DNA of 64,000 nt, taken from Isurus oxyrinchus. Its lineage: Eukaryota. The notes below the pieces were generated by a model. The model worked only from the letters and a program-made list of their open reading frames with translations, had not been told where the DNA came from and made no database searches. The position numbers and the translations under genes are program-made. This document shows, in pieces, positions 5,557-62,190 of the stretch; position 1 is the stretch's first letter, and each line of letters opens with the position of its first letter. The stretch is from contig JANJGN010000210.1 of assembly GCA_026770705.1 (NCBI GenBank), positions 186,001 to 250,000 of the forward strand, given 5' to 3'.

Positions 5557-5573
5557 CAGCGCCCTCTAGTGAC
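5557..5573 (-). promoter_or_regulatory. CTCF-like motif about 22 bp beyond the RSS nonamer
   Basis: GTCACTAGAGGGCGCTG matches the vertebrate CTCF core consensus CCA(C/G)(C/T)AG(A/G)(G/T)GGC(A/G). Confidence 0.6.
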
Positions 5574-5635
5574 TCTAACCGGAACTCCCAGTGTGGGTTT
5601 TTGTACAGTATCCGCTGTACCTCTGCAGCACTGTG

Positions 5636-6855: not shown

Positions 6856-6873
6856 GCGCGCCCTCTGGTGAAC
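6856..6873 (-). promoter_or_regulatory. CTCF-like motif about 22 bp beyond the RSS nonamer
   Basis: GTTCACCAGAGGGCGCGC. Confidence 0.6.
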
Positions 6874-6895
6874 ACATGCTGGAACTGCCAGTGAG

Positions 6896-29910: not shown

Positions 29911-31352
29911 TGTCGCTGTCTGTTCTGTAAAAAGGGGAGTTGGATATTTGAAGATAGCCGTTCTAAACCCCACCCTGAACAATCTGCTGTCGTGTCTCAT
30001 GATGTTCTCACCTCACTCTCTTCTGTCCCCAGTGGTGATGTGAGGACGTCAGCTGTGAACTGGCTCCCAATGAGTTGAAAAATCCAGAGCTGGGGTACAG
30101 TCAGTGTTCTTATAGGTGAAATGGTTTCGCAGTTAGACTAAAACCCTTACTTAGTTGTTGTAACCGGAAGCATGGGTTTGCTGATTTAGTTTGTTTATTC
30201 TGGCGTCAATTCTTCAGCTGAAGTTCCAGTAGCCTTAACAACAGGATACAGGTAACCGTGACTCCAGTGAGATTTCCCTCCTCAATCAGTGAAGTAGTGA
30301 ACTAACAATAATTTCGCCATTTTGCCAGAGTGTTTTTAGGATCCGTCATATTGAAAGGATGATATTTGCTGAAACTGAACATACACTGAGTAAAAATTAA
30401 TAATAAACTCGCGTGTAATTGAATCAGCGTTGACCTTTTCTGTGATTTGTATTTAAATTTCTGTTTCAATTTGCTCTGTGAATTCTGACATTCTTCGTGT
30501 TTGTGATGATTAATCTAACCATCCATCATATACAGGTTTGGAATTTGTGATGAGAGAGAATTTGGGTTGCGGCGCTTTTTAAGCAACTTGTCTCCTATCG
30601 CTTTAAAGTGGGCGGGAACAGAGAGCCTGAGCGGGTTCAAAGCTTCCAGGATGAGCTGCAGAGCGGGTTTTTATTAACAAGAATTGAGTACCAGCAGACT
30701 GTTTTAATAACCTTAGCTGGGGTTAGAAAATGGCTATGGAGCAGAAAAAGAAGTAAACCAGAGACATTTTTAGTTTGTCTTTCGCTCCTTTGATATCCAT
30801 TTTCACCACCGATGCATTTAGAATTACTGCGACCTCACGCCCTCTAGTGAGTATTCTGAGAAATGTTCAGTCGCCGCTGGTCAGATTGTGAGAGATTCTT
30901 TATTTAATCACTGATTTGATGTGACAGTTCATATTTGTAGGATGTTCAGTTTCAGCGGTCCTGACTTAATATTCTGAGCAAAAAAACAAACGTTTTATAT
31001 TACTGAACTAAAGACTGTAAGAAGAAATAAAAAGGGCGATGATTAAATAATAAAGACAGGCGATGAGAGGAAACAGACTGCGAAAATATAGGGAAAGGCA
31101 GGTCAGTTAAGATTCCACAGGTGTATCTGTAAATTTAATTTTTATATAAATGTGAGTTGTTGGTATGATTTTATAAATGGAGCTCCCCTGTTCTTATTGA
31201 ATGTTGTGTTTCATTGCAATTTTAAAAGTCTATGTAAATCTCATTGTGGTGGCTGAATTATTGCTTCTGTTTTTATTAAATTTATTGAATTATTTCTTTC
31301 CGTTTTATTGTTGCCTCAGTGCCCTCTAGGGACTCAAGTTGGAGCCAGCGTG

Positions 31353-31850: not shown

Positions 31851-32655
31851 TGTCCCCCGAGTCTGTTATTCTGTTGTCCTGGAATCCTCTGTCAGCTTAG
31901 AAATAGAGATTGCCTCCCCACTGCGCTGCTGATCCAACCAATGTCAAAAAAGGCAAAGTGGCGACAATCTCTCCAATAATAAAACAGGACAGACAAGGCA
32001 GGTCAGAGCGACAACAGCAAATGGAAGCTGTGAGCGTGGCTACCGCAGGCAGTGTTAACACACGTAGGATTTATCTACAAGGAACTGAACTGAATAATAA
32101 TCACACCTTCGAAAATTATACAACTTTGCTTCTCTCTCACAATTCAGTTTAAACTTCATTCCATATTCCGAGCCACATAGATAGCAACAGAAGTGTCAGA
32201 GTAAGTATATCATTCAGTAGTAAGCGAAATCTTCTTCAGCGCTGCGGATTGAAATCAGGACCGAATACATGAGCAACTGGATTGGAGTGGTCCTGAATGA
32301 ATGTAAAAGGAAGTCGATAAACCTTAAACGTTTATATTAAACACGGGAAAAGGAAATGTGCGCAATTTTCAGAAAAGTCTGAAGACGAGTGGTCAGGAAA
32401 ACTCAGGAAGGGAAAGGTGTCGAAAACCAAAAAGGAGAAATTAGGCATGGCAGGCCGATTTGTCAGTCTCATATCTATTAGAAATACAAATTGCAATCAC
32501 AATCTAATGAGACAGTACAAGTGGACCTCAACAGTTGCTGTTATCAAGTGTGTTTTGTTGCAATTTTCAGAATCTTTCTGTCACTCTCACAGTGGAAACT
32601 GAATTACCGGTGTGTGCGCGCCCTCTGGTGAGCACTGGCTGGAACTGCCAGTGAG

Positions 32656-35447: not shown

Positions 35448-36644
35448 ACAGTGTTCAGCAGAAGGTAAATTAATGAAGGTGTGTGGGAAAACCAGGGATG
35501 CATTGTGGATTGATATATTTTTGCTGTTTAGCTGTATACCTCTGGGATTTAGCACCCTTGTTACACAATGGCTGGTGAACCTGATGACTGTTGAAAATAA
35601 CGTGTTAACCAATACCTCTGGAACCAGCTGCTCCTACTGAACAAGTCACCAGTTATCTCCAACGTTAAGTTTAAAGATCAGAAGTGTATGTGAGGAATTT
35701 AATCTCTATTGACAAACTGGTAAGTTTGTATTATTGCAGTGAATGAAGTTAGTTAAAAACAATCCATTGCTGTGCACTTGTTTATGTTTTGTGTGAAATC
35801 ACCAGATACAACATTTCAAATCAAGAATGAAACACAAGTTGATATCTGCAGGGGAAAGTTAGCGGTTTCTGTTTGCCTTTCACTCCATCGATCTCCTCTA
35901 TCAATACACTGAATGGTTACAGAATGGTATCTGCAAGATGCACTGCAGGAACTCACCAAGTCTCCTTTGACAGCACCTTCCAAACCCCCGGCCACTAGCA
36001 TCTAGAAGGACAAGGGCAGTAGATGGATGGGAACACCACCAGCTGGACGTTCCCCTCCAAGTCACTCACTATCCTGACTTGGAAATATACCGCCGTTCCT
36101 TCACTTTCGCTGGGTCAAAATCTTGGATCTCCCTCCCTAACAGCCCTGTGGGTGTACACTGCTGCAATGGAAATTTCAATTTTTGGAATGAGTCTCTAGC
36201 AGCAATATGAGGGAAATTGCGCGCTCAAAATTTCTGAAATTTAACCAAGAAATATCAGCAACATCTTCTGTGACCACCTATTGTGGCTATTTGAATGCAT
36301 ATGTGTGTTTGCGCTTGTGTGTTTATCTGTATGTATACGTGCAGTGCTCCGATGTTCTCCAGCAGATTACTCAATAGCGATCATGTTTCTCAGCTACTGG
36401 AAGGGTTTTTTTTATTTATTCATGGGATGTGGGCGACGCTGGCTGGGCCAGCATTTCTTGCCCATCTTTTATTGCCCTTGAGAAGGTGGTGGTGAGCTGC
36501 CTTCTTAAACAACTGCCGACAGTACTAGTAGGGAGGTGGTTCCAGGATTTTGACCCAGTGACAGTGATGGAACGGCGATATATTTCCAGGTCAGGATGGT
36601 GTGATGCTTGGAGGGTAACTTCTAGAAGGTGTTGTGTGTTTGTG

Positions 36645-36698
36645 TGATTATGACAGTATCCAGCAGAGGGTAGCTTGCTAAAGGTCTGCTTGTGTGGT

Positions 36699-36777
<79 letters not shown>

Positions 36778-36901
36778 TTCTGTATATGTGTATGTGCGTG
36801 ATTATAGCAGTGTTCAGCAGATGGTAGATTGCTGCAGAGGTGTGTGTTTGTGTCTGTGTGTGTGAGGTTATGACGGTGTCCAGCAGAGAGTAAGGTGCCA
36901 A

Positions 36902-36959
<58 letters not shown>

Positions 36960-37105
36960 ATGTGTGATTATGGCAGTGTCCAGCAGAGTGTAGGTTGCTG
37001 AAGGGGTGTCTGTATGTGAATGTGTATGTGAGTGTGGATGTGTCTGTGTGTGTTGTGTGTGCGTGTGTGCGTGTGATACCGAAAGTGTCCAGCAGAGCAG
37101 CAAAC
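36645..37105 (+). repeat. Compound array: about 5 copies of ATTATGACAGTGTCCAGCAGAGGGTAGATTGCTAAAGG separated by (TG)n
   Basis: Units at about 36647, 36801, 36867, 36967 and 37075. Confidence 0.9.
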
Positions 37106-38065
37106 GGCGATGTCAAATTGAAGGGCCGCATCAATATTAAGGGAACCGTTTCGTTTTCTTTGTGTAAAACAGCAGATGCTATAACTGGGACTTAGCGAAC
37201 ATTTACTCCGTCACCGAGCTCCATGACCCAGTGAACACCTCAGAGCTTCCACCGATATTGGAGGTGGCAAAACAGAATTGGCGGAGGTTGCCAAGTAATT
37301 GCAGTGCAGTGATATCCAGGGCAACATACAACCTCTTCATTCTGAAAGAGGTTCCGAACCTGAATCTTCACCATTTCTTCCTGAAAGGCAAAGGCAGAAT
37401 ATTTCAAACGTAAGGGAGTAACCCTGGAAAACAGGCTGACTCTTCAAACCTCGTTTCACTGTGCAATTTGAGTTCTCTAAATAATTTGGAAATAAAAGTC
37501 TAATGATGCCTACGGAACCATTGCCGATTGTCGGTAATAAACACATCTCATTCACTAATGTCCTTTGGGGGCGTAAATCTGCCGTCCTTACCCGTTCTGG
37601 CCTACATGTGACTCCAGGCCCACATGAATGTGATTGACTCTTAAACGCCCTTTAGCAAGGGCAATTGGAGCAGGGCAATAAATGCTGGCCTAAAAGCGAC
37701 ACCCATATCCCATGAATGAATCAAAGCAAATGTTTAGAAGATCCATTTTCTTCCAGTCTCTCGGTGCGAAGATTTTCTACGTGCAGTGCCCGATAAACAG
37801 TAGGCGTTCAAATTGATAAAAGGTAATCACCACAGCTCAGAGACAGGTTAAACATAGCAGTTCAAATCGCTCATGAAACGCTGAGAATCACAAATGCTTA
37901 GAAATAAAAGAACAGAACATTCTGGAAAAAATAAAGTTTAGCCGGAAAAGATGCCTCTCAGTGGAGAGAAAATCTGAACTAAATTTTCTGATCGGGTAAC
38001 TTTTTAACCGAACTGAAAAATCTGGAAGTGAAATAAGTTCTGTTCAATCGTTTGGCAGGACAAGG

Positions 38066-38290
38066 TTTCATTGTACGGGATCCGGTTAATCTCTGTAGCA
38101 GTGTAGGGTTCATGGTGCAAAGGCACACCAGTGGCAGAGGGAAGTTCCCAGCGATATTTAAAAACATCCTTGTGATTTCCTTTAGCAAAGCAACAGATAC
38201 CTTTCCGGAGTCACAGGGACCAGGCAATAGAACGGGTGCCCTCAAATATATGACTGTCCTTTTACAGAGCGGACAGTTCAAATGCGAGCT
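38066..38290 (-). pseudogene. 5'-truncated V relic (family B-related)
   Basis: ..GKVSVALLKEITRMFLNI..LCTMNP with decayed RSS TACACTG-24-ACAATGAAA; paralog at about 57045-57260. Confidence 0.65.
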
Positions 38291-38398
38291 TTGGAATGGG
38301 TGCCTTCACTTGAGTCACGTCATCAAATTGTTGAGGGCGGGGTTTAGAATAGGTGCCTTCAAATATGCGAGTGCCCTTTGAGTGAGCAGGCAGCGACA

Positions 38399-38904
38399 AT
38401 GCAGCTGCTCGGCACCTTGGTTGTGCGGGGGAGTATTTATCACAGGTAATTGTGAACTGAACATCAAGTCATCTTTTCTCCCGTTTCCTAGCCAAGGTTC
38501 AGGGTCATGTTTAATCAGCCACCGTTCATATCTTGCCCACTCTTATTTTGTTTCCAGATCTAAGTGATGGTGATTCAGTGACTCAGCCGCTGTCCACACG
38601 TGTTAAGGCAGAGGGAGAAGGAGTGACACGGAGCTGTAGGTACGATTCTACAGCGAGCAGCTTTAGTCTTATTCTGGTACCGACAACACGCAACACACAG
38701 CCCGAGTATATGGTCAGGAAGGATAGTGACGGTGATGAATTTAAAGCAGATTTTGCTAAACTCGCTTGTCTTCGGGTCTCCAGACCTTCAATAAAGTCAT
38801 CTGTTTATCCATCTCGGGTTTGCAGCGGACTGACGCTGCCGTGTAATACTGCACTTTCACGGACTCACAGTGACGGAATGCAGTCTCACTCCTGTACAAA
38901 ATTG
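38399..38904 (+). pseudogene. V pseudogene (family A)
   Basis: 47-nt (frameshifted) leader 38399-38445; V exon from 38558 with frameshifts and TAA in YYC; RSS CACAGTG-23-ACAAAATTG at 38866-38904. Confidence 0.9.
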
Positions 38905-40349
38905 CGACTGAACTGCGGAGTGGGATTCACTGACTGTTGAGCATTGTGGTGAATCTCAGGCACATTTAGCCTCTCAAAACACACCGGAAGGAAACCAAAT
39001 GAACCTCGGAACAAACTGTCACCCAACAGTTTTCTAAGAGAGGCTGAGAAAATAAACCTTCAGCTTCTCAACGGGCAGAGAGACATAGAAGAGAATCCTA
39101 TTGGAAGGGAGCCGTTCAGATCCCTTCCCTCACTGACCTGCTGCCGTGTGAGAACTGTCGATGCTGAGCTATCTGTGTTTGCGAGTGTGTGTGTGATTCC
39201 GGCAGTGTCCAGCATGTCAGTGAACGGAAACACCCCAAGCTCGGCTACTCTCAATGCCCTGAGCGGAGTAATGGCTTTGCTGTTCGAGATCCGGGTGGAA
39301 GTGGGAACGCCAGGCCCAGTGCTGATCAACAGGAAAGCAAGTTTAATGGAGAAGAAAACTGTTCCAACGTTATGAAGACTTGCTTGTGTTTGTTTTAACG
39401 ACCATAGTCACTAACTTGCAAGATCTTCTGCCTGTGTAAAAAGTACTCTGATCCAGTGTCAGGAATATAAAATAATTTTCGTAATGTTATTAGAAATTAT
39501 TGTTAAGTGGAGTAACAGTGGGGTCTGGGGTCTGTGCGTGAATTAATTCAATTAAAGGCAGATGGTCTGAAGACTTTGATGTATTGGAAGATAAGCTCGG
39601 TTTGAAAAGTGAACGTTTCAGTGGGTGTTTTCGAATGTGTGCGTTTGTGTGTGTGGGAGCTGTGTGTGTGTATCTGTGTGCGTCTATCTGTGTTTGCGAG
39701 TGTGTGTGTGATTCCGGCAGTGTCCACCAGAGGGTAGATTTCAAAAGGTGCGTGTGCGTTTGTGCATGCGCGCAGTCGGCCGCTGAGACACACAAAGTGA
39801 TAGGAAATCAAATTAACCTCGGATCAAACTGTCAGCCAACTGTTTCTCACAGACTGCAGAATCCGATTGGACAGATTGACATGGAAGTGAATCATACCTG
39901 AAGAAATCCTGTCCAATCCACATTGGTTGTTCACCTGTAAATCAGGGTTAATGGGGGAGGGAGACATTCTAGAGTGAGGAACACATCCTCAAACAGAACA
40001 CACATTAGGGGCGCTCTTCCTTCACTGCCCCGTTCCTTCTTTGCCGCTGTCTCAGAATACTGGATCTTTCTCCCTAACAGCGCGGTGGGTGTACACCGCT
40101 GCAATAAAAACAACAAACTCATGAATGAGTCTCTGGTGGCGATTGCGGTAAGTTGCGCTTTCGCAGCTTCTGCAATCAAAGAAAAAAATTAGCAACATCT
40201 CTTTCTGGCCACCGAGCGTGGCTATTTGAATATATATGCATGTGTGCCATTGTGTGTTCCGATGCTATCCAGTGGAGGGCGCTCGCTGATCACTTGACAG
40301 CGATATTTTTGCTCAACTGCAGAAAGAGTTTTTCTCATTGATCTGCCAG

Positions 40350-48002: not shown

Positions 48003-50729
48003 CACAGTGATGAAAATCAGTCTCACCCCTGTACAAAAACTGCCTATGCACTGTTAGTGGGAACTCCAGTCTGTTGGGGTCTGTGTCGAATCTCGGGTAG
48101 ATGAAGTGACAATGCTCAGCGGCGCTGCCAGCCGCTCAGACACATAGCGACGCGAAACCACATTAACCTCGGATCAAACTGCCGCCCAACTGTTCCCAGG
48201 AGCGGCCCAGAAAATCAAACAAACTGCAGAATCCGATCGGGCAGACAGACATGGAAGGGAATTTGACCTGACGTCCGATCCTCATTCGTTGTTCATTATC
48301 ACCAGTAAATCAAGGTTAATGGAGGATGAGGGAGACATCTGCAAACAGAATGCAAACCGAACGCGATCTATGCTTGGTTCAGTAATCACAGGGCTGGACT
48401 GCACTAGCCATATAAATACTGTGGCTACAAGAGCTGGTCAGTGGCTAGGAATCCTGCGACGAGTAATTCACTCCCCTATTCACTAAAGTCTATCCACCTT
48501 CTGCAAGGTAAAAATCAGGAGTGTGATGGAATACTCCTCACTCGCCTGGATCAGTGCAGCTCCCAAAACACTCCAGAAGCTGGACACCGCTCAGGACAAA
48601 GCAGTCCGTTTAATTGGCACCACATTCACAAACATTCACTCCCTCCACCACCAAAGCACCGTCACAGCAATGTGTACCATATACAAGATGCACGGCAGGA
48701 ATTCACCGAGGATCATTCGACAACACCTTCCGATAGCAGATGGATGGGAATACCAGCAAAAGTAGGACAGCATAAGGTAAAAAAAAGATATAGATGCATT
48801 TCTGAAATTCAATCTTTGGTTTATATTGTGAGTTGAAATAAACTACTCTAAATCCGGTACTGATTGTCACCTGTATTGAAAGGGAAAAATATAGATAAAG
48901 GAGTAGAGACTGGTTTCAAGGGAAGGCATCCCTGAAATTCATCGTGGAGCCTGAATTCTTCCTCCTCCTCATTGGTGTGAAGGAGCCCTCTTATGCGCAC
49001 TGACTGGAATTCTCAGTGTGAGGCTTTCTACGGGCTCCTGGAAGACATGTTCAATTGTTATTCATTCATGGGATATGGGCTTCGCTGGCTGGGCCAGCAT
49101 TTATGACCTATGTGTAATTGCATTAGAAGTTGGTGGTAAGCTATCTTCTTGAACCGCTGAAGTTCATGTGGTGCAGGTTCAGCCACAGTGCTGTTCGGGA
49201 GGGAGTTCCAAGATTTTAACCCAGCGACAGGGAAGGAATTTCATGCAGTGAATAATACATGTGTCACAATTGCATTGGAGCATCTCAGATTGCAACCGTT
49301 GTGTAGATAGTTTAAGTACAGTTGCGCTGGCTCACTGTCTGTAAAGGCCACGTTGACATGTTTATAATATTCATTGACTGCATTGAAGCACTTCATGATC
49401 TATTTGGAAAACTGTAATATGATTTCATTTTTTGTGATGACCACTTTGAAACGCTTTGAACTGTTCTTTCAGATATTTTATGAATAAAGTATATTTTACC
49501 TAAAATAAACTGGATCACAGGAGGCAGACTCACTGATGGGAATGGTATAATTACTGATTGATTTAGTGACTTGGTTCATTTATTACTATCATCTTAGCAA
49601 GATGCGTGGAAGACAATAAGTGATACCATAGGTAAAAGTTAGAAATGGTGGAAAATACTATCTGGAATGTGTAGGGACAAGAATTAAGCGCTGCTCCCAC
49701 TGGGGGCGAGTACTTTCACTGATACTGTATCTATTCTTTTAGCTGGGAGGTCTCATCTACATCTGACCTGTTCACTGCACTTTGTCTTGTGCTACATGCG
49801 ACTGCCTAATTGTCACCACAGCCGTTTCGGGTCAGTGCCCATCTGAGAGGCTTTGAAGAGTAACTCTGGCCCGCTGAATGGAAGGAGAAATTGCCCGGGT
49901 GAAAGTTTGATTTCCTCCACCAGGTGGCAGACGAAGCCTAGATATCGCCCAGCTCTCTGCCTGGAGCAGCCCTCAGCCGCTGACCAGCCTTGGAATTGTC
50001 TATCAATCAATCTGTGCTTATAAATCCCATTTCGCTCCTGAAATCCACTCCAACTCAACGCATGGCATTCACCCGTCTGCTGGGTAACGGGAGTCGCTGT
50101 CCCATTCGCTGGTCCACGGGAAAAGCACTGGAGAGTTCAGTTACTTTTACGGACTTCGCATCCATTCTGTCAATGCTTCCTCAGGCAATTCTAAGGGAGG
50201 TCAATGGCAGAGTAATTAATGCTGCTGAGTCCGCGCAATCACCACCACACATCTGATACAACAACAACCCTCAAACCCCCTCCGCCCCCACCTTCCCTTC
50301 TGAAGCAAATGTGGCTCTTTCTCATTTTGTGGCTCTATTTGAATGGAGACGAATGGCAGCCGGAAAGCACCTGATGTTTTCCTGCTCCATCTCAGAAGAT
50401 GCATCTCGCTCCTTTAGACTTCTGGGTCTCAAGCCAAACGCCACAGGGTGAAAGGTCAGCCTGTGCCCCAATGGCCAACTTAATGGCTTGTCATAGACAA
50501 GAGGCCCTCTGCGAACTCGGCTGAGGCCGAGCGGACTCCGGCTTCGTGAAGATCCTGGAACAAAGATCTGACTCACCCAAATCACAGCTATGTGCAAAGC
50601 AGCAGAAAGCATGAGAGCATTGGGTCCTGAAATGCGATGAAATGCCACCAGAGTGCGTGTCTGCTTCAATTGGGCTTTAACATGGCAGTGTGACCTGAAT
50701 ATTCGGATTAGTGTAAGAGAGACTTGCAT

Positions 50730-55639: not shown

Positions 55640-55979
55640 TATGATTCCGCCAGTGTTCAGCAGAGGGTAGATTGCTAAAGTTGTCTGTGTGTGATTATGA
55701 CACTGCGCAGCAAAGGGTAGATTGTTAAAGGTGTGTGTGTGTGTATGTGTTTGTGTATGTGTGTGATTATGACATTGTCCAGCAGAGGGTAGATTGCTTA
55801 AGATGTTTGGTGGGTGTGCGTGTTTGTCATGATCACAGTGCCCAGCAGAGGGTAGATTGCTCAAGGGCTGTCTGTGTGTGCATGTGGTAATGACAGTGTC
55901 CAGCAGAGGGTAGATTTCTAATGTTGTGTGTGCGTGTGTGTGATTCAGGCAGTGTACATCAGAGGGTCGATTGCGAAAG

Positions 55980-56054
<75 letters not shown>

Positions 56055-56080
56055 ATTCTGGCACAGCACAACAGCAAACG
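55640..56080 (+). repeat. Compound array: 6 full and 1 degenerate copy of GACAGTGTCCAGCAGAGGGTAGATTG separated by TG-rich spacers
   Basis: Units at about 55641, 55694, 55766, 55830, 55887, 55943 and 56055. Confidence 0.9.
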
Positions 56081-57044
56081 GCAAAGACGAATTGAAGGGC
56101 CACATCAATACTAAGGGAACGGTTTCATTATCTTTGTGTCAAACAGCAGATGCCATGGCTGGGACATGTGAAAACATAGGCCCTGTCACCGAGCTCCAAT
56201 ACTCAGTGAACATCTCAGAGCTTCCAAGCGATTTTGGAGGTGGTAAAACAGAATTGACGGAGTTGGCGAGTAACCACAGTTCAGAGATATCCAGGAAAAT
56301 TCACAACCCCTTCATTCTGAAAGATGTTCAGAACCTGAATCTTCGCCATTTCTTCCTGAAAGACATAGGTAGAATATTTCGAAAGAAAGGAAGTAACCCT
56401 GGAAAACACGCTGACTCACCAAACCTGGATTCACTGTGCAATATCTATTCTCCTAATAATCTGGATTTGCAAGTCTAATGATGACAACAGAATCATTGCC
56501 AGTTGCAGTGAATAAACCCATATGTTTCACTAATGTGCTTTAGGGAGAGAAATCTGCCGCCTTTACCTGGTCTGGCCTACATCTGACTCCAGGCCCACAT
56601 TTATGTGGTTGGCTCTTAAATGCCCCTGAACAAGGGCAATTAGAGCAGGACAATAAATGCTGGCCAACGTCCTACTAAGGAATAAAACAAATGTTAAAAA
56701 TATCAATTTTTCCCCAGTCTCTCGGTGCGAAGAGTTTCTGCCCGTGCAGTGGCCAACGAACACGAGGCAATGGAATTGATAAAAGCTAATCAGCACAGCT
56801 CAGAGCCAGGTTAAACATAGCAAGGGTTCAATTCCAATCCCACACAATGCAATAATCGAATGCCGAGAACCATAAATGCTGCAAATCTGAAATAAAAGAA
56901 CAGAACATTCTGGAAAAGTAAAGGATAGCTGGTTAGGATGCCTCTCAGTGGAGAGCTAACGTTTCAGATTGATGAAATTTTATCCCAACTGGAAATGCTG
57001 GAAGTGACGTAAGTCTTCTTCAATGATTCGGTGGGATTTTGTGT

Positions 57045-57260
57045 GTTTCATTGTATGGGACCTGGTTAACTTTTGCAGCCAGTGTGGGGTCCATGGCGTA
57101 AGGTGTTGGCGGATGATAGTTCCCATGGATATTTAAAGCAAACCCTGTGATTTCGTTTTGCAAAACATCAGATACCTTGTCTGGGGTCACAAGAACCAGG
57201 TAACATTCTCCGGAATACTGGGGTAAGAGCGGGACAGGGGGATTCTCTCGATGTCCTGGG
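57045..57260 (-). pseudogene. Truncated V relic (paralog of the 38.1 kb relic)
   Basis: ..PDKVSDVLQNEITGFALNI..YAMDP with CACACTG heptamer and ACAATGAAA nonamer (25-nt spacer). Confidence 0.6.
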
Positions 57261-57675
57261 GCCACATTCCACCTTTAACAAACACCACCCAATGCAAACA
57301 CATGCACCGACCTCCCAGTTTATCACTGTGCGGAAAGGAATGCAACAGCACAACTGGCAGAAAGAAAAGCTCCCCTCCCCGACCCCTGTACCCCAGAGTA
57401 TTGTGGGAGGGGCTTTCACATCCTGATCACAATCCAAATGTAGAGTCAGAAAATTGCAGCCTCCTTTTATAAACCTATCTCTTATTCACACAGCACTTCG
57501 CCACCTATCCGGGAACCATGCGGCCCATCAATGATCTCAGCGAAACTGCCCTGTACAAATAAACTCGACCCCCCTAAAATATTTCAGTCCAGCTCTGAGG
57601 TCCGGTTTCCCAGTGCACTCCAGGGCTGCAGTCTCCAGCTCCCCGTCATATAAACCCTCAGTTCCAGGCAGCAGA

Positions 57676-58158
57676 ATGATGGGAATCTTTCTTGCTTTCA
57701 CCCTGTGTGAATGTTTACCCCGTGAGTACCGATCAAACAAACCGACATTGTGTGGATTTAATAGTAAGCTGCCCGAGCCCATCCCAATTACAGACAATGT
57801 CTGGGGTTTAACCCCGTTCTGTGAATCTGCTCTGATGCTCCATTAAACTCTCTCTGTTTAATTTCCAGGCTATTTCAGTCAGTCATTGACACAGACCTCG
57901 GCAGCGGTGACCAGGAAGGAGTGTCATTCTCTCACCATTACCTATGTTTTCTATGGTGGTTTTTACGCTCGACATTTGACGGGCGGGGATTTCTTCAGAA
58001 AAACCCAGACCGGGACAGAGCGGGAGCGGATCTCCAGCGGAGGAAGATTTGTTGAGACGTTGAATAAAGCACAAAAGACATTTTCGCTGGAAATTCGGGA
58101 TGTGAGAGTTGAATACACCGCCACCTATTTCTGTAAATCTCAGTACGAGTACGAAGAA
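57676..58158 (+). pseudogene. NTCRV: NAR-TCR variable segment (IgNAR-like V), open frame but Cys23->Tyr
   Basis: TATAAA at 57649; leader 57676-57721 MMGIFLAFTLCECLP with GTGAG donor; exon 57869-58158 LTQTSAAVTRKECHSLTITYV..ERISSGGRFVETLNKAQKTFSLEIRDVRVEYTATYFCK has the VNAR signature (no CDR2); RSS CACGGCG-22-ATAAAAACT at 58159-58196. Confidence 0.92.
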
Positions 58159-58525
58159 CACGGCGACGGGTCTCGGTTTCCCGCGATATAAAAACTCTCA
58201 CTGCAGATTATTACAGAATCAAATAAAAAAAACGGAGTTAATCTGCAGTTAAACCCCCCACGGTTCCGCCTCACACCGCCTGCCCCACAGTCTAGTGTAT
58301 AATGAGACTGGATTATTGCCGTTAACATCTTGAGTTTTATAAATGTCGAGTGTGTGCGGATGGCGATGTCTTTGCCGGGATTGGTGTCAGTGAATGGGGA
58401 TTGGGAATGACTAATCCCAGTTACAAACCTCTAACACCAGATGTGATCCTGGTCTAACAGCTGGAACTGGGAACCGCAGTCCCCGCTGTTTACCTAGTAT
58501 ACCCACAGCGCACCAAGTACCCAGG

Positions 58526-58598
58526 GGATTTCATGCTGACTTGTAACACTGCGTGTTTGGATGGGGAAGTCACAGTGGAAGAGACTTGAGCAAATATC
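58526..58598 (+). other. NAR-TCR D segment flanked by 12/12 RSS
   Basis: GGATTTCAT-12-CACTGCG, core TGTTTGGATGGGGAAGT (58554-58570), CACAGTG-12-GCAAATATC. Confidence 0.8.
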
Positions 58599-58914
58599 TC
58601 TCCACAATCACAATATAAATTCTCCAGTCCCGGACAGTGAATTGTCGGGTTGATGTTATTGTTGCTATAATCTGGTTACATTTCATTGTAATTTCCACCA
58701 TTCAGTTATCTTTCTTTAATCATTTTTCTCGGTTTATATGAAGAGAACATTTCGTTCCCGGGACCATTTACTCAGAACTCAGGGCCTCACAAAGAACAGT
58801 TTGAACAGACAGAGACTTTAAAATATTGAATATTGTTTACTTATTTATATCCGCTGAATAATTGGGCAGTTTCTACTGTCTGATGATGATTCCCCAGTAG
58901 TTTGAGTTGTCGGT

Positions 58915-59010
58915 GATTGTTGTACCGGGGACACTGAGAGTGGTGTCACTGTGGTGGGTTACTAAGTATTATTCTGTGGATGGACCCAGGACAGCTGGTA
59001 ATAACTCCAA
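58915..59010 (+). pseudogene. NAR-TCR J segment with 23-RSS, decayed
   Basis: GATTGTTGT-23-CACTGTG (58915-58953); coding 58954-59010 reads YYSVDGPRT then frameshifted LVITP; no GT donor after ACTCCAA. Confidence 0.7.
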
Positions 59011-59869
59011 ACCTCGCCGGGTTACCGACTGTCCCTTGTAATGTTCACCGTCAGTTTATTATTGATATCGGTTGGGTTTGGGGGGATGTGGGAGTTGATG
59101 GAATCTGGACCATTATTGGTTTAACGGGCACATTGGGGACAACATCAACATCTCGGACTCTCACACTTTGAATCGCTTTTAATGAGAGCAGATTGTCGGC
59201 AATCCGGACTCCACTCCCGGTGTTAACTGTGACCGAGGGAGCTCTGCCTGTCCCTTAGAGCTGGGGAGCGGGGTGACAGATCTCTCTCCTGGGCAGCAGT
59301 TTGCAGTCCGAGCTGCGCAATGTGAATGAGGAACCGGGTGAATAAACTCAACATAACTGCGGCCAGTTCGGATACCTGACCCGGGAGTAAAACAAGCAAG
59401 TGACACAATGGACTTCAGATATAAGAGGTCCTGATGTGGGTCTACATGGAATTTTATTATTGGATAATCAGTGACTGAAATTAGTGACAATGCCCCCGCC
59501 GTTTGTTTCAATTGTCTTCAGAAAACCAATTACTTTCCTCCCTTTCTGACCTCAGACCGAAATGTGAAAGTTTGGAACTGCAGACACTTTATTATCTTGA
59601 ATGTAGATGTTTGAGAGATGGGATTGCTGTAATTTTTCTGTATCCCTGATTACTGTTAATGGAAACAACAAAATGCAGTGAGATAGTGAGGATAATGCAT
59701 TAATCTTATAAAGGAGAACAAGAACATAGGGAACAATTATAAACTGGGGCCATGTTCATTTAGAACCAGCAAGAAATAGCTCAGCGAAAGGGGGAGAAGG
59801 ATTGTATGACCTCTGGGCGCCTTCCAAAGTACAATCCGACCACGTGGTGGGTGAGCTTTATGGAGGGAA

Positions 59870-60430: not shown

Positions 60431-61846
60431 TTCTCTACTTTGATTTCCTATAGGCCTGAGAAAAGAAATCAGCAGCATTCCACATCTCTCTGGGAAGTTG
60501 AAGCCGGCAGGGCCTGTTTTTTCTGGACAAAAGGGAAACACTGGGAAAATTAATAGAAACCTTTCAAACAATGAGCGGTTTTAGTCTGGTGAAATTGTTT
60601 ATTTGTGGCTGAGTCCAAAGCAATGGACCATCAAAATATTAACAGGACAAAGAAGAATATTAAGACAAATAAATTTTAACAAAGACAAGTCAGAGTATGG
60701 AACTTGCTGTCCCAGGGAGTGCTTGCAGATATTACTGATATATTTACGGAACAGACCGACCCAGGGAGCTGGATGGAAATGGTCAGTTAAGTTTCGGTGG
60801 GGATTAGGTTGGAATTGAGTCTATGCACAGGTTGAATGGCCCATTCCTCTTTTGCGTTCTTTTTCCTCCATAATGTTAAAATTGAGGGAAAACTCCGCCC
60901 AGTGAACCCGGGAAAGAATCAGTTAACGTACGGAAAGAATTGAAATTGTCAGAGAGCCGGAAGAGGCAGTTCCCAGTGAGTAACAGTAAAACCACTGCGG
61001 AAACTGAACAGACTGAACCCAACAGACAACTGAGAGAGTTTGGGGCAAGTTCCCACGATTGCAAAAAGCGCAAACAGCACAAAGTAAATGTGAAAAAAGG
61101 AAATGTGAAATAAAGTAAATAAAATAAAATTAATTGTAAATATTTCAAATGAACTAAACTGCAGAAAATTGGACCCTATTGATAAAACTTAGAGAAATAG
61201 AGCACCAGGCCGAGAGAAATTCCAGAGCACTTATAAGCCGCAAGAAATGATTGACGTTTGGCCACTGATGTTTACTCTCGCTTTGGCCCAATTGGTGCTG
61301 ATGATTCCCATCGGTTTGTGTTGGGTCTTGTGATGCCACACAGCTGTATTTCTCTCTAACAAACATTTTTCTTTTTTGGAAATCGGTTGCCTCATTGGTC
61401 ATAAAATATTCCCTCGGGTTTGTGTCTCACTGGGGATAATACACACAGGGATGTAATTTTATTCATAGAATTATCCGGCCCGTCGTGTATGCGCCGATGC
61501 ATTAGAAGTGCAAACCAATTGTTCCCACGGCCCATTAACTTTCTCCAGCGCTCTATATTTTTATTTACATTTCCAGTACAGATCCATTACCTGCTTCAAA
61601 GTTACAATGGAATCTGTTCCCACCACCAATTCAAACGGTGCATTCTTCATGAGGAGAATTCGCTATGGAAAAAAAAATCACTTCATTCCCTACTTTATCA
61701 TAGTTTAATATCAGTGAATACGGTTCAAACAGGCTTCAAAAAATAAAATTACCACAAAAAGCAGAGCTATTCAAGCGATCGACAATTTCTCCTGGACAAA
61801 CAGTGGATAAACAAAAAGATAATGTTCATTTTTTTTGATTCTCCAG

Positions 61847-62190
61847 ATTCCAGTTCCATGATTTCCCGGGATCTGCCAGTACAAACCTCTGCTGCCTGTG
61901 ACACCGTTACTTTAAACTGTGAATATTCAGGGTTCTGTCCGTACACAGTACACTGGTATCGTCTGTCGCCCGGAAAGGCTCCGGAATATCTGCTTCAGAG
62001 ACACACTTCAGGAGAGGAGAATAAACAAACGCCGTCGAGGGGAGAATTTCTGCTTCTATCGAATCTGTCAAGAAAATCAGCCGGTTAAAGATCTCCAAAC
62101 TACAATGGAGCAACTCCGCTGTGTCTTACTGTGCACTGAGTCGGCGTGCAGCACAGTGATACAGAGAATGGAGAGAGCTGTAGAAAAGCC
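61847..62190 (+). pseudogene. STCRDV: Leaderless supporting TCR delta V of NAR-TCR, frameshifted
   Basis: CAG acceptor; DTVTLNCEYSGFCPYTVHWYR..PEYLLQRHTSGEENK, a 1-nt frameshift, then GRISASIESVKKISRLKISKLQWSNSAVSYCALS; CDR1 Cys; RSS CACAGTG-23-AGAAAAGCC at 62152-62190; no leader exon recognisable upstream. Confidence 0.9.

What the first reader, a model, noticed from the sequence alone, without database searches (positions are those of the whole stretch)
55640..56080. Array of same-strand CTCF-like motifs with (TG)n spacers 1.6 kb upstream of the NAR-TCR cassette
Seen: six copies of a conserved unit of about 35 bp containing TGTCCAGCAGAGGGTAG, separated by variable TG-rich spacers. The core aligns to the CTCF consensus TGGCCACCAGGGGGCGC, but has T at the normally conserved C of GGC. 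Established: clustered same-orientation CTCF sites act as loop anchors at mammalian Igh. Inference: a microsatellite-amplified CTCF anchor or insulator array that could confine or stall RAG scanning next to the cassette. It could instead be a neutral shark minisatellite.
Basis: partly seen in the sequence, partly recalled or inferred. Interest (0 to 1): 0.7.

Follow-up and report, generated by a model that had tools for sequence, protein, structure and literature searches.

The report
Shark minisatellite with weak CTCF-like sites
The six repeats upstream of this shark T-cell-receptor cassette belong to a repeat family with well over a thousand copies, mostly away from immune genes; they resemble a docking site for the genome-folding protein CTCF but are likely passengers of gene duplication, not a control element for receptor assembly.

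Summary
The array is real: six co-oriented 39-bp units with (TG)n spacers, 1.6 kb upstream of a NAR-TCR start codon. It is not special to NAR-TCR. The unit is a minisatellite family (1,966 matches within one mismatch; 0 for the reversed control). Its largest arrays (10-30 kb) lie elsewhere, others beside tandem GPCR genes. It avoids the 20 largest contigs (7 of 1,136). Only 12 of 39 sampled NAR-TCR V genes, from one subclade, carry it. It lies outside the shared cassette boundary (57202), and homologous arrays precede ordinary TCR V genes. The CTCF likeness is real (3 of 6 units p<1e-5, recalled matrix; the family fits the upstream-motif register). But the units decay like their flanks, CTCF-read positions are not better conserved (rho -0.11, p 0.65), and 0 of 206 NAR-linked units keep both core and upstream contacts. 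The adjacent cassette looks broken. Better RAG-scanning candidates are single canonical CTCF motifs 17-21 nt behind the RSS of one V family in this window, a layout this scan noted before in other shark genomes. Binding is untested. Verdict: hitchhiking minisatellite, possibly CTCF-derived; low to moderate interest.

The parts
55643..55980 (+). Six-unit minisatellite array (39-bp units, TG-rich spacers of 11-33 bp)
55776..55794 (+). Unit 3 CTCF-like 19-mer, 14.2 bits, p about 4.5e-6 (recalled matrix); lacks the upstream C(-10)
55839..55857 (+). Unit 4 CTCF-like 19-mer, 13.1 bits; upstream motif degraded
55897..55915 (+). Unit 5 CTCF-like 19-mer, 14.2 bits; upstream motif degraded
55654..55672 (+). 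Unit 1 core, 9.4 bits (C1>T) with an intact upstream TTCC; units 2 and 6 score 0.1 and 0.4 bits
55980..56052 (.). (TG)36 microsatellite closing the array, followed by a fragment of a seventh unit
56075..57203 (+). Right flank shared (76% identity) with the block upstream of an ordinary TCR V at 37101-38227; not part of the common NAR-TCR cassette
57202..59020 (+). NAR-TCR cassette: shared 5' boundary at 57202, ATG 57676, V exon from about 57869, RSS 58159, D about 58554-58570, J after 58953. The V lacks the first canonical Cys, which 4 of 8 near-identical copies retain
61845..62190 (+). Supporting TCR V downstream of the cassette, frameshifted relative to the open paralog in L036
54260..54626 (+). 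Upstream TCR V (V17720-type) whose 3' flank carries the array also at loci without NAR-TCR
36646..37075 (+). Paralogous 4-5-unit array upstream of an ordinary TCR V (38321-38866); same block as the finding
39710..39748 (+). Single unit inside a TG tract; best unit in the window (14.9 bits, upstream TTCC intact)
35449..35479 (+). Single degenerate unit

Best explanation
The array is one copy of a dispersed shark minisatellite family, and it was likely carried next to one NAR-TCR subclade as a passenger of segmental duplication, with no dedicated role in V(D)J recombination. Shown: family membership, clustered genomic distribution, at least 15 unrelated flank classes, 1-13 units among paralogous arrays, and a position outside the cassette unit. 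Inferred steps: (1) the ancestral unit was probably a two-part CTCF site, or a chance mimic, embedded in a TG tract; (2) units are gained and lost by slippage or unequal exchange in the TG spacers; (3) arrays seed new sites by ectopic recombination or conversion between TG tracts, mainly on small chromosomes and in tandem gene clusters; (4) one array settled 3' of a TCR V, a NAR-TCR cassette was later joined 1.1 kb downstream at 57202, and the block was duplicated. The best units may bind CTCF weakly (about 40-45%), but this array is decaying.
For: Exact 22-mer: 822 copies; 1,966 with one mismatch; reversed control 0. With a degenerate pattern, 7 of 1,136 matches are on C1-C20 and 13 on C26; in fetched DNA 260 matches lie outside TCR-region contigs and 20 inside. 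Long arrays lie on C34 and C41; arrays flank 7TM GPCR ORFs on C45, C39 and C36. 92 arrays fall into 15 flank classes; 42, including this one, share one class. 12 of 39 NAR-TCR V genes have an array within 3.5 kb, all in one subclade; 15 of 44 in a looser count. Cassette homology starts at 57202 in array-less cassettes. The same left flank plus array precedes ordinary TCR V genes in L122, L124 and L125. Divergence is unrelated to CTCF information content over 461 unique units (rho -0.11, p 0.65; critical versus other positions p 0.15). Orthologous first units are 77-90% identical, left flanks 69-79%, right flanks 84-87%. 0 of 206 NAR-linked units have both a core of at least 12.7 bits and T(-12)+C(-10).
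Against: Arrays are strongly enriched in the TCR region relative to the big chromosomes: 5 flank classes there against 3 arrays on C1-C20. First units are slightly more similar than left flanks (252/312 = 81% versus 75%, non-independent pairs). Critical positions are nominally less variable (6.5% versus 8.3%, not significant), and T12>C is the commonest change at any T tested (38 of 461). The 12.7-bit cut is an edge: 11 of 33 NAR-linked arrays have a best unit at 12.6-12.7. No empty pre-insertion site was found, so the dispersal step is inferred. My NAR-TCR sample was not random. The scoring matrix is recalled.
Confidence: 0.7

Rival explanations
1. The family is a mobile carrier of working CTCF site arrays that insulates repeated gene cassettes in general (TCR V region, GPCR clusters); this array is one, possibly decayed, example.
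For: The family consensus matches the register upstream-10-mer + 5 bp + TGN + core given in PMC12885311 S3. T(-12) and C(-10), the base-specific upstream contacts in PMC10484683, are present in 76-100% of unique units on C21, C41, C45, C72, C166, C14, C6 and C17. 40-62% of units on C21, C41, C45, C72, C166 and C14 pass both tests. On C45, 50% have G8 and 81% have TTCC. A conserved mammalian site (UPK2) has T at position 12, and 5mC is tolerated there. Tandem CTCF copies strengthen insulation. CTCF orientation rules hold in skate.
Against: No CTCF-specific conservation; the linker and 3' tail are as conserved as the core. The C6/C17 subfamily has an extra T that spoils the core (0-2% pass). The C34 arrays lack C(-10) (0-2%). 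T12 stays in 392 of 461 unique units although C would add 3.8 bits.
Confidence: 0.17
2. One reading: a CTCF anchor array that confines or stalls RAG scanning specifically at NAR-TCR cassettes, like the Igh 3'CBEs.
For: Same orientation as the V; distance of 1.8-2.7 kb kept across about 30 cassettes; 3 of 6 units score p<1e-5; clustered CBEs act at mouse Igh.
Against: Absent from 27 of 39 sampled cassettes. The fixed distance and strand follow from one origin. The best unit scores 10.7 bits or less in 11 of 33 NAR-linked arrays. V, D and J lie within about 1.1 kb, so long-range scanning is likely not needed (inference). 10 single motifs in the window outscore every unit. Igh 3'CBEs lie downstream of the locus, convergent with V sites, unlike this.
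Confidence: 0.06
3. The TG-rich, strand-skewed array works through DNA structure or recombination (Z-DNA, a PRDM9-type hotspot, or an AID/switch-like target) and promoted the duplications around it.
For: Arrays sit in heavily duplicated regions; the region is G/T skewed; each consensus unit holds two WGCW words (AID hotspot motif, recalled).
Against: The duplication breakpoint seen (57202) is 1.1 kb away from the array; the array is upstream of the promoter; nothing was tested directly.
Confidence: 0.07

Closest known systems
CTCF-bearing tandem repeats, e.g. mammalian DXZ4/Dxz4 (PMC3491370: abstract and section 10 read)
   Same: Tandem units each with a CTCF-like motif; variable unit number.
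   Different: DXZ4 is one locus with shown binding and conservation confined to the CTCF motif across 25 mammals. This family is dispersed, its binding is untested, and conservation is not confined to the motif.
Two-part CTCF site, core plus upstream motif (PMC12885311 passages and supplement 1 part 1; PMC10484683 passages and section 3 parts 3 and 5)
   Same: Register and many bases agree in the family consensus.
   Different: T12 is nearly fixed; in the finding no unit keeps both halves.
Mouse Igh 3'CBE cluster and VH-CBEs (bioRxiv 10.1101/2020.01.01.891473 passages; PMC10772921 passages)
   Same: Same-orientation CTCF-like sites in an antigen-receptor locus.
   Different: The array is upstream of a promoter within the V region, present at a minority of cassettes and mostly elsewhere in the genome. 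The VH-CBE layout is matched instead by single sites behind the RSS of another V family.
Dispersed minisatellite families with microsatellite-containing units (general knowledge, recalled)
   Same: Short core, variable spacers, unit-number polymorphism, higher-order repeats, clustering on small or terminal chromosome regions.
   Different: This unit was not found described in my searches.

Membership tests
Minisatellite (VNTR) family | Head-to-tail units of 10-100 bp | tested here: met
   Period 50-72 bp here; median 48-103 bp in other arrays, 185 on C21
Minisatellite (VNTR) family | Variable unit number between homologous arrays | tested here: met
   1-13 units among NAR-linked paralogs; about 900-bp higher-order repeat on C34. 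Variation between individuals not tested
Minisatellite (VNTR) family | Related arrays at unrelated loci | tested here: met
   15 flank classes among 92 arrays; junctions
Mobile element (transposon-borne) | Shared termini, target-site duplication or empty site | tested here: inconclusive
   No shared non-repeat flanks; the one array-less counterpart (L123) holds an unrelated segment instead; TSDs not searched systematically
CTCF-binding element | Core motif match | tested here: met
   3 of 6 units at 13.1-14.2 bits, p<1e-5, recalled matrix
CTCF-binding element | Upstream motif in register on the same unit | tested here: not met
   0 of 6 here, 0 of 206 NAR-linked units; met in 40-62% of units on six other contigs
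CTCF-binding element | Conservation concentrated on CTCF-read bases | tested here: not met
   rho -0.11, p 0.65; Mann-Whitney p 0.15; unit versus flank identity
CTCF-binding element | Occupancy by CTCF and cohesin | not testable with these tools
   Needs ChIP/CUT&RUN or EMSA
RAG-scanning anchor (Igh CBE type) | Consistent association with the segments it serves | tested here: not met
   12 of 39 NAR-TCR V, one subclade
RAG-scanning anchor (Igh CBE type) | Directly behind an RSS, or flanking the recombination centre | tested here: not met
   About 2.2 kb upstream of the NAR V RSS and 1 kb past the previous V RSS; 0 of 32 NAR V have a motif behind the RSS. Position relative to D-J-C delta not mapped
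RAG-scanning anchor (Igh CBE type) | Effect on segment usage or loops | not testable with these tools
   Needs repertoire and chromatin-contact data

The most novel reading that the evidence does not exclude
A shark minisatellite born from a two-part CTCF site spreads through TG tracts and seeds CTCF arrays between the repeated cassettes of multigene clusters (TCR V region, GPCR clusters), acting as a self-propagating insulator.
Probability: 0.15. Interest if true: 0.65.

Novelty: new member of a known kind. Interest (0 to 1): 0.27.

Why it matters
As it stands this is an apparently undescribed but ordinary repeat family, useful as a marker of the duplication history of shark NAR-TCR cassettes. 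If the units bind CTCF, it would show a tandem repeat, rather than a SINE or LTR, spreading architectural sites into multigene clusters. Array-linked and array-less cassettes in one genome would then give a built-in test of whether CTCF shapes the shark TCR repertoire. The RSS-side single motifs are the better lead for an ancient CTCF role in V(D)J recombination.

Tried and rejected
tRNA or structured-RNA neighbour: 0 tRNAs in the window and in 40 loci; 0 Rfam hits in 14 loci. The recurring 100-bp neighbour is the end of a Penelope-like element (RT plus GIY-YIG). Origin from a CR1 LINE tail: two window tails inspected by eye; only one 3-mismatch hit inside a CR1; not supported. Telomeric association: 0 telomere hexamers in the last 10 kb of C41. 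Coding role of the flank ORF at 56074-56475: no Pfam hit. Empty-site search in 12 flank homologs: none clean. ChIP data: none was listed for L007:1-4900 with the word ChIP, which is no evidence either way. Metagenome scan for the 22-mer: 0, uninformative for a shark repeat. A printed copy of the CTCF matrix was not found, so the matrix is recalled. A shark genome paper that I recall as having CTCF ChIP-seq is not held. The unit scores printed at the foot were off by one base and were redone. The strict RSS scan (0 of 15) missed the 24-spacer V family and was replaced. One search failed and was rerun. No paper describing this repeat, or CTCF sites at shark TCR V segments, appeared in searches (0 papers), 77 and 88; subscription journals are not covered, and bioRxiv supplements were closed.

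Full report
Observation. The array is present as described: six co-oriented units from 55643 to 55980, spaced 50-72 bp, followed by (TG)36 and a fragment of a seventh unit, 1.62 kb upstream of the NAR-TCR ATG. The 17-mer occurs 13 times in the window with up to 3 mismatches, against 0.14 expected; it is exact in 2 of the 6 units. The window also holds a second array (36646-37075) inside a block 75% identical to the finding's (36766-38227 versus 55731-57203), and two single units.

Setting. The window is G000:C210:186001-250000, part of a shark-type TCR alpha/delta V region (inferred from V-set ORFs with RSSs and a NAR-TCR-like V-D-J cassette). A protein search gave 149 NAR-TCR-V-like matches among 150 candidates scored of 265, on C26 (23-40 Mb) and seven smaller contigs. 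NAR-TCR is described in PMC12227049 (passages), where the word CTCF does not occur.

Genome-wide family. The exact 22-mer has 822 copies and the one-mismatch form 1,966; reversed controls give 0. A degenerate pattern has 1,136 matches: 7 on C1-C20, 4 on C21, 13 on C26, the rest from C34 onward (the first 100 are listed in contig order). Contig sizes fall with number (C6 194 Mb, C17 119 Mb, C21 118 Mb), so C1-C20 likely hold at least 2.4 Gb. Arrays of about 30 kb (C34) and 11 kb (C41) exist. On C45, C39 and C36 arrays flank 7TM GPCR ORFs; 15 of 15 fetched C45 loci, chosen from hits, carry arrays. Near the C6, C14, C17, C21 and C72 arrays only retroelement domains were found; one Ig V-set ORF lies about 10 kb from a C36 unit (only the longest ORFs per locus were scanned). 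In fetched DNA the pattern occurs 260 times outside TCR-region contigs and 20 times inside (520 and 824 kb fetched). Exact patterns undercount the more diverged TCR-region units. Ninety-two arrays with both flanks fall into 15 flank classes, 5 with TCR-region members; 42 arrays, including this one, form one class. The family is therefore neither uniform nor specific to antigen-receptor loci.

Relation to NAR-TCR. Of 39 full-length NAR-TCR V genes with at least 3.5 kb of upstream DNA, 12 have an array, all within one subclade of 18 rows (support 94/86; 4 changes; one origin not ruled out). Partial hits and hits with shorter flanks were dropped, and the sample was enriched for array-bearing regions. 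A looser count gave 15 of 44. Most array-less cassettes share sequence with the window only from about 57202 onward. The 1.1 kb between the array and 57202 is shared with blocks in front of ordinary TCR V genes. The left flank plus a two-unit array also precedes ordinary V genes in L122, L124 and L125, and one NAR-TCR pseudo-cassette (L123) has both flanks with the array replaced. The simplest reading (inferred) is that the array was there first and a NAR-TCR cassette was joined downstream. The window's own V lacks the first canonical cysteine (4 of 8 near-identical copies keep it), and its supporting V is frameshifted relative to the L036 paralog; an assembly indel is possible.

CTCF likeness. 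The family consensus sits in the register of the published two-part consensus, upstream 10-mer + 5 + TGN + core (PMC12885311 supplement 1, part 1 of 2; the columns of its alternative bases were lost in the PDF text). With the recalled JASPAR matrix the six units score 9.4, 0.1, 14.2, 13.1, 14.2 and 0.4 bits; 1 of 4,000 shuffles of one period reaches 14.2. PMC10287918 (passages) reports that upstream specificity depends on core strength. Descent from a real site is thus plausible, although a genome has many repeat families from which such a match could be picked.

Selection. Over 461 unique units from 10 array groups, detected with equal weight on all 39 positions, divergence does not track CTCF information (rho -0.11, p 0.65). 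Seven critical positions differ in 6.5% and twelve other positions in 8.3% (p 0.15); G10, near-invariant in the matrix, differs in 14%. Orthologous first units are 77-90% identical (8 pairs), left flanks 69-79%, right flanks 84-87% (7 pairs). Among 33 NAR-linked arrays (206 units; one row is a probably spurious single hit), 27 units reach 12.7 bits and none also has both upstream contacts. The best unit is at least 14.2 bits in 11 arrays, 12.6-12.7 in 11 and at most 10.7 in 11. Arrays on C21, C41, C45, C72, C166 and C14 are better: 40-62% of unique units pass both tests. If the family binds CTCF anywhere, it is more likely there.

Better candidates in the same window. Ten single motifs outscore every unit. 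Non-array motifs of at least 13 bits occur at 13.5 per 100 kb in TCR-region DNA (71 in 524 kb) against 4.0 in control loci (12 in 300 kb). Among 63 V segments with a called RSS, 10 of 10 of one family have a same-strand motif 17-21 nt behind the nonamer (all at least 10.8 bits, 8 at least 12), against 1 of 53 others, 0 of 32 NAR V, and 1.8% of random windows. These ten are related copies, not independent cases. This matches the mouse proximal VH-CBE layout (bioRxiv 10.1101/2020.01.01.891473, passages). I found it before the look-up; earlier notes of this scan report the same layout in other shark genomes. CTCF orientation rules hold in skate (PMC10115646, passages).

Mechanism and odds. Neutral or near-neutral minisatellite carried by duplication: 0.70. 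General CTCF-array insulator family: 0.17. NAR-TCR-specific RAG anchor: 0.06. Structural or recombination role: 0.07. It works like a VNTR family. It is not filed as a CBE cluster, because conservation and association were tested and not met and occupancy is untested. The closest functional precedent, DXZ4, shows motif-restricted conservation (PMC3491370 section 10) that is missing here. PMC5006368 was seen as a listing only. No description of this repeat appeared in searches.

Noticed in passing
window 5557-5575, 6856-6874, 31317-31335, 32616-32634 (all - strand): Single canonical CTCF motifs, some with an upstream motif, 17-21 nt behind the RSS nonamer of one TCR V family (10 of 10 members versus 1 of 53 other V). 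Resembles mouse VH-CBEs; noted before by this scan in other genomes.
   Followed up: partly
window RSSs at 5635, 6935, 31392, 32695 (-) and 58159 (+): The CTCF-linked V family reads with a 24-nt RSS spacer (9 of 10); NAR-TCR V genes read with 22 nt (29 of 32).
   Followed up: partly
window 57202: Sharp 5' boundary shared by most sampled NAR-TCR cassettes, about 475 bp before the ATG; likely the end of the duplicated cassette unit.
   Followed up: partly
G000 C26:23-40 Mb, C140, C151, C152, C210, C242, C301: Very large NAR-TCR V expansion: 149 matches, including a tandem run of 27 in 180 kb of C242. Some small contigs may be haplotypic duplicates.
   Followed up: partly
L006, L010, L022, L026-L028, L030, L032, L034: Ends of a Penelope-like (RT plus GIY-YIG) element abut the unit at nearly the same position just 3' of the core, on C34 and C45; a possible target preference.
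   Followed up: no
L028:2134-3096, L014:7366-8376, L011:8396-8971: Rhodopsin-family GPCR ORFs in duplicated units next to arrays on C45, C39 and C36.
   Followed up: partly
L082, L088 (C6, C17): Subfamily with an extra T after core position 12 that spoils the CTCF match.
   Followed up: partly
window 23824, 49912-49932, 8526, 16712, 43168: Further strong single CTCF motifs between V genes, including a two-way palindromic site at 49912-49932 that recurs in paralogs.
   Followed up: no
L096:5547-6104 (C36): Ig V-set ORF about 10 kb from a single unit, outside the TCR-region contigs.
   Followed up: no
L008:313-1761 (C34): Retrovirus-like reverse transcriptase ORF about 5 kb past the long C34 array; observed only.
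   Followed up: no
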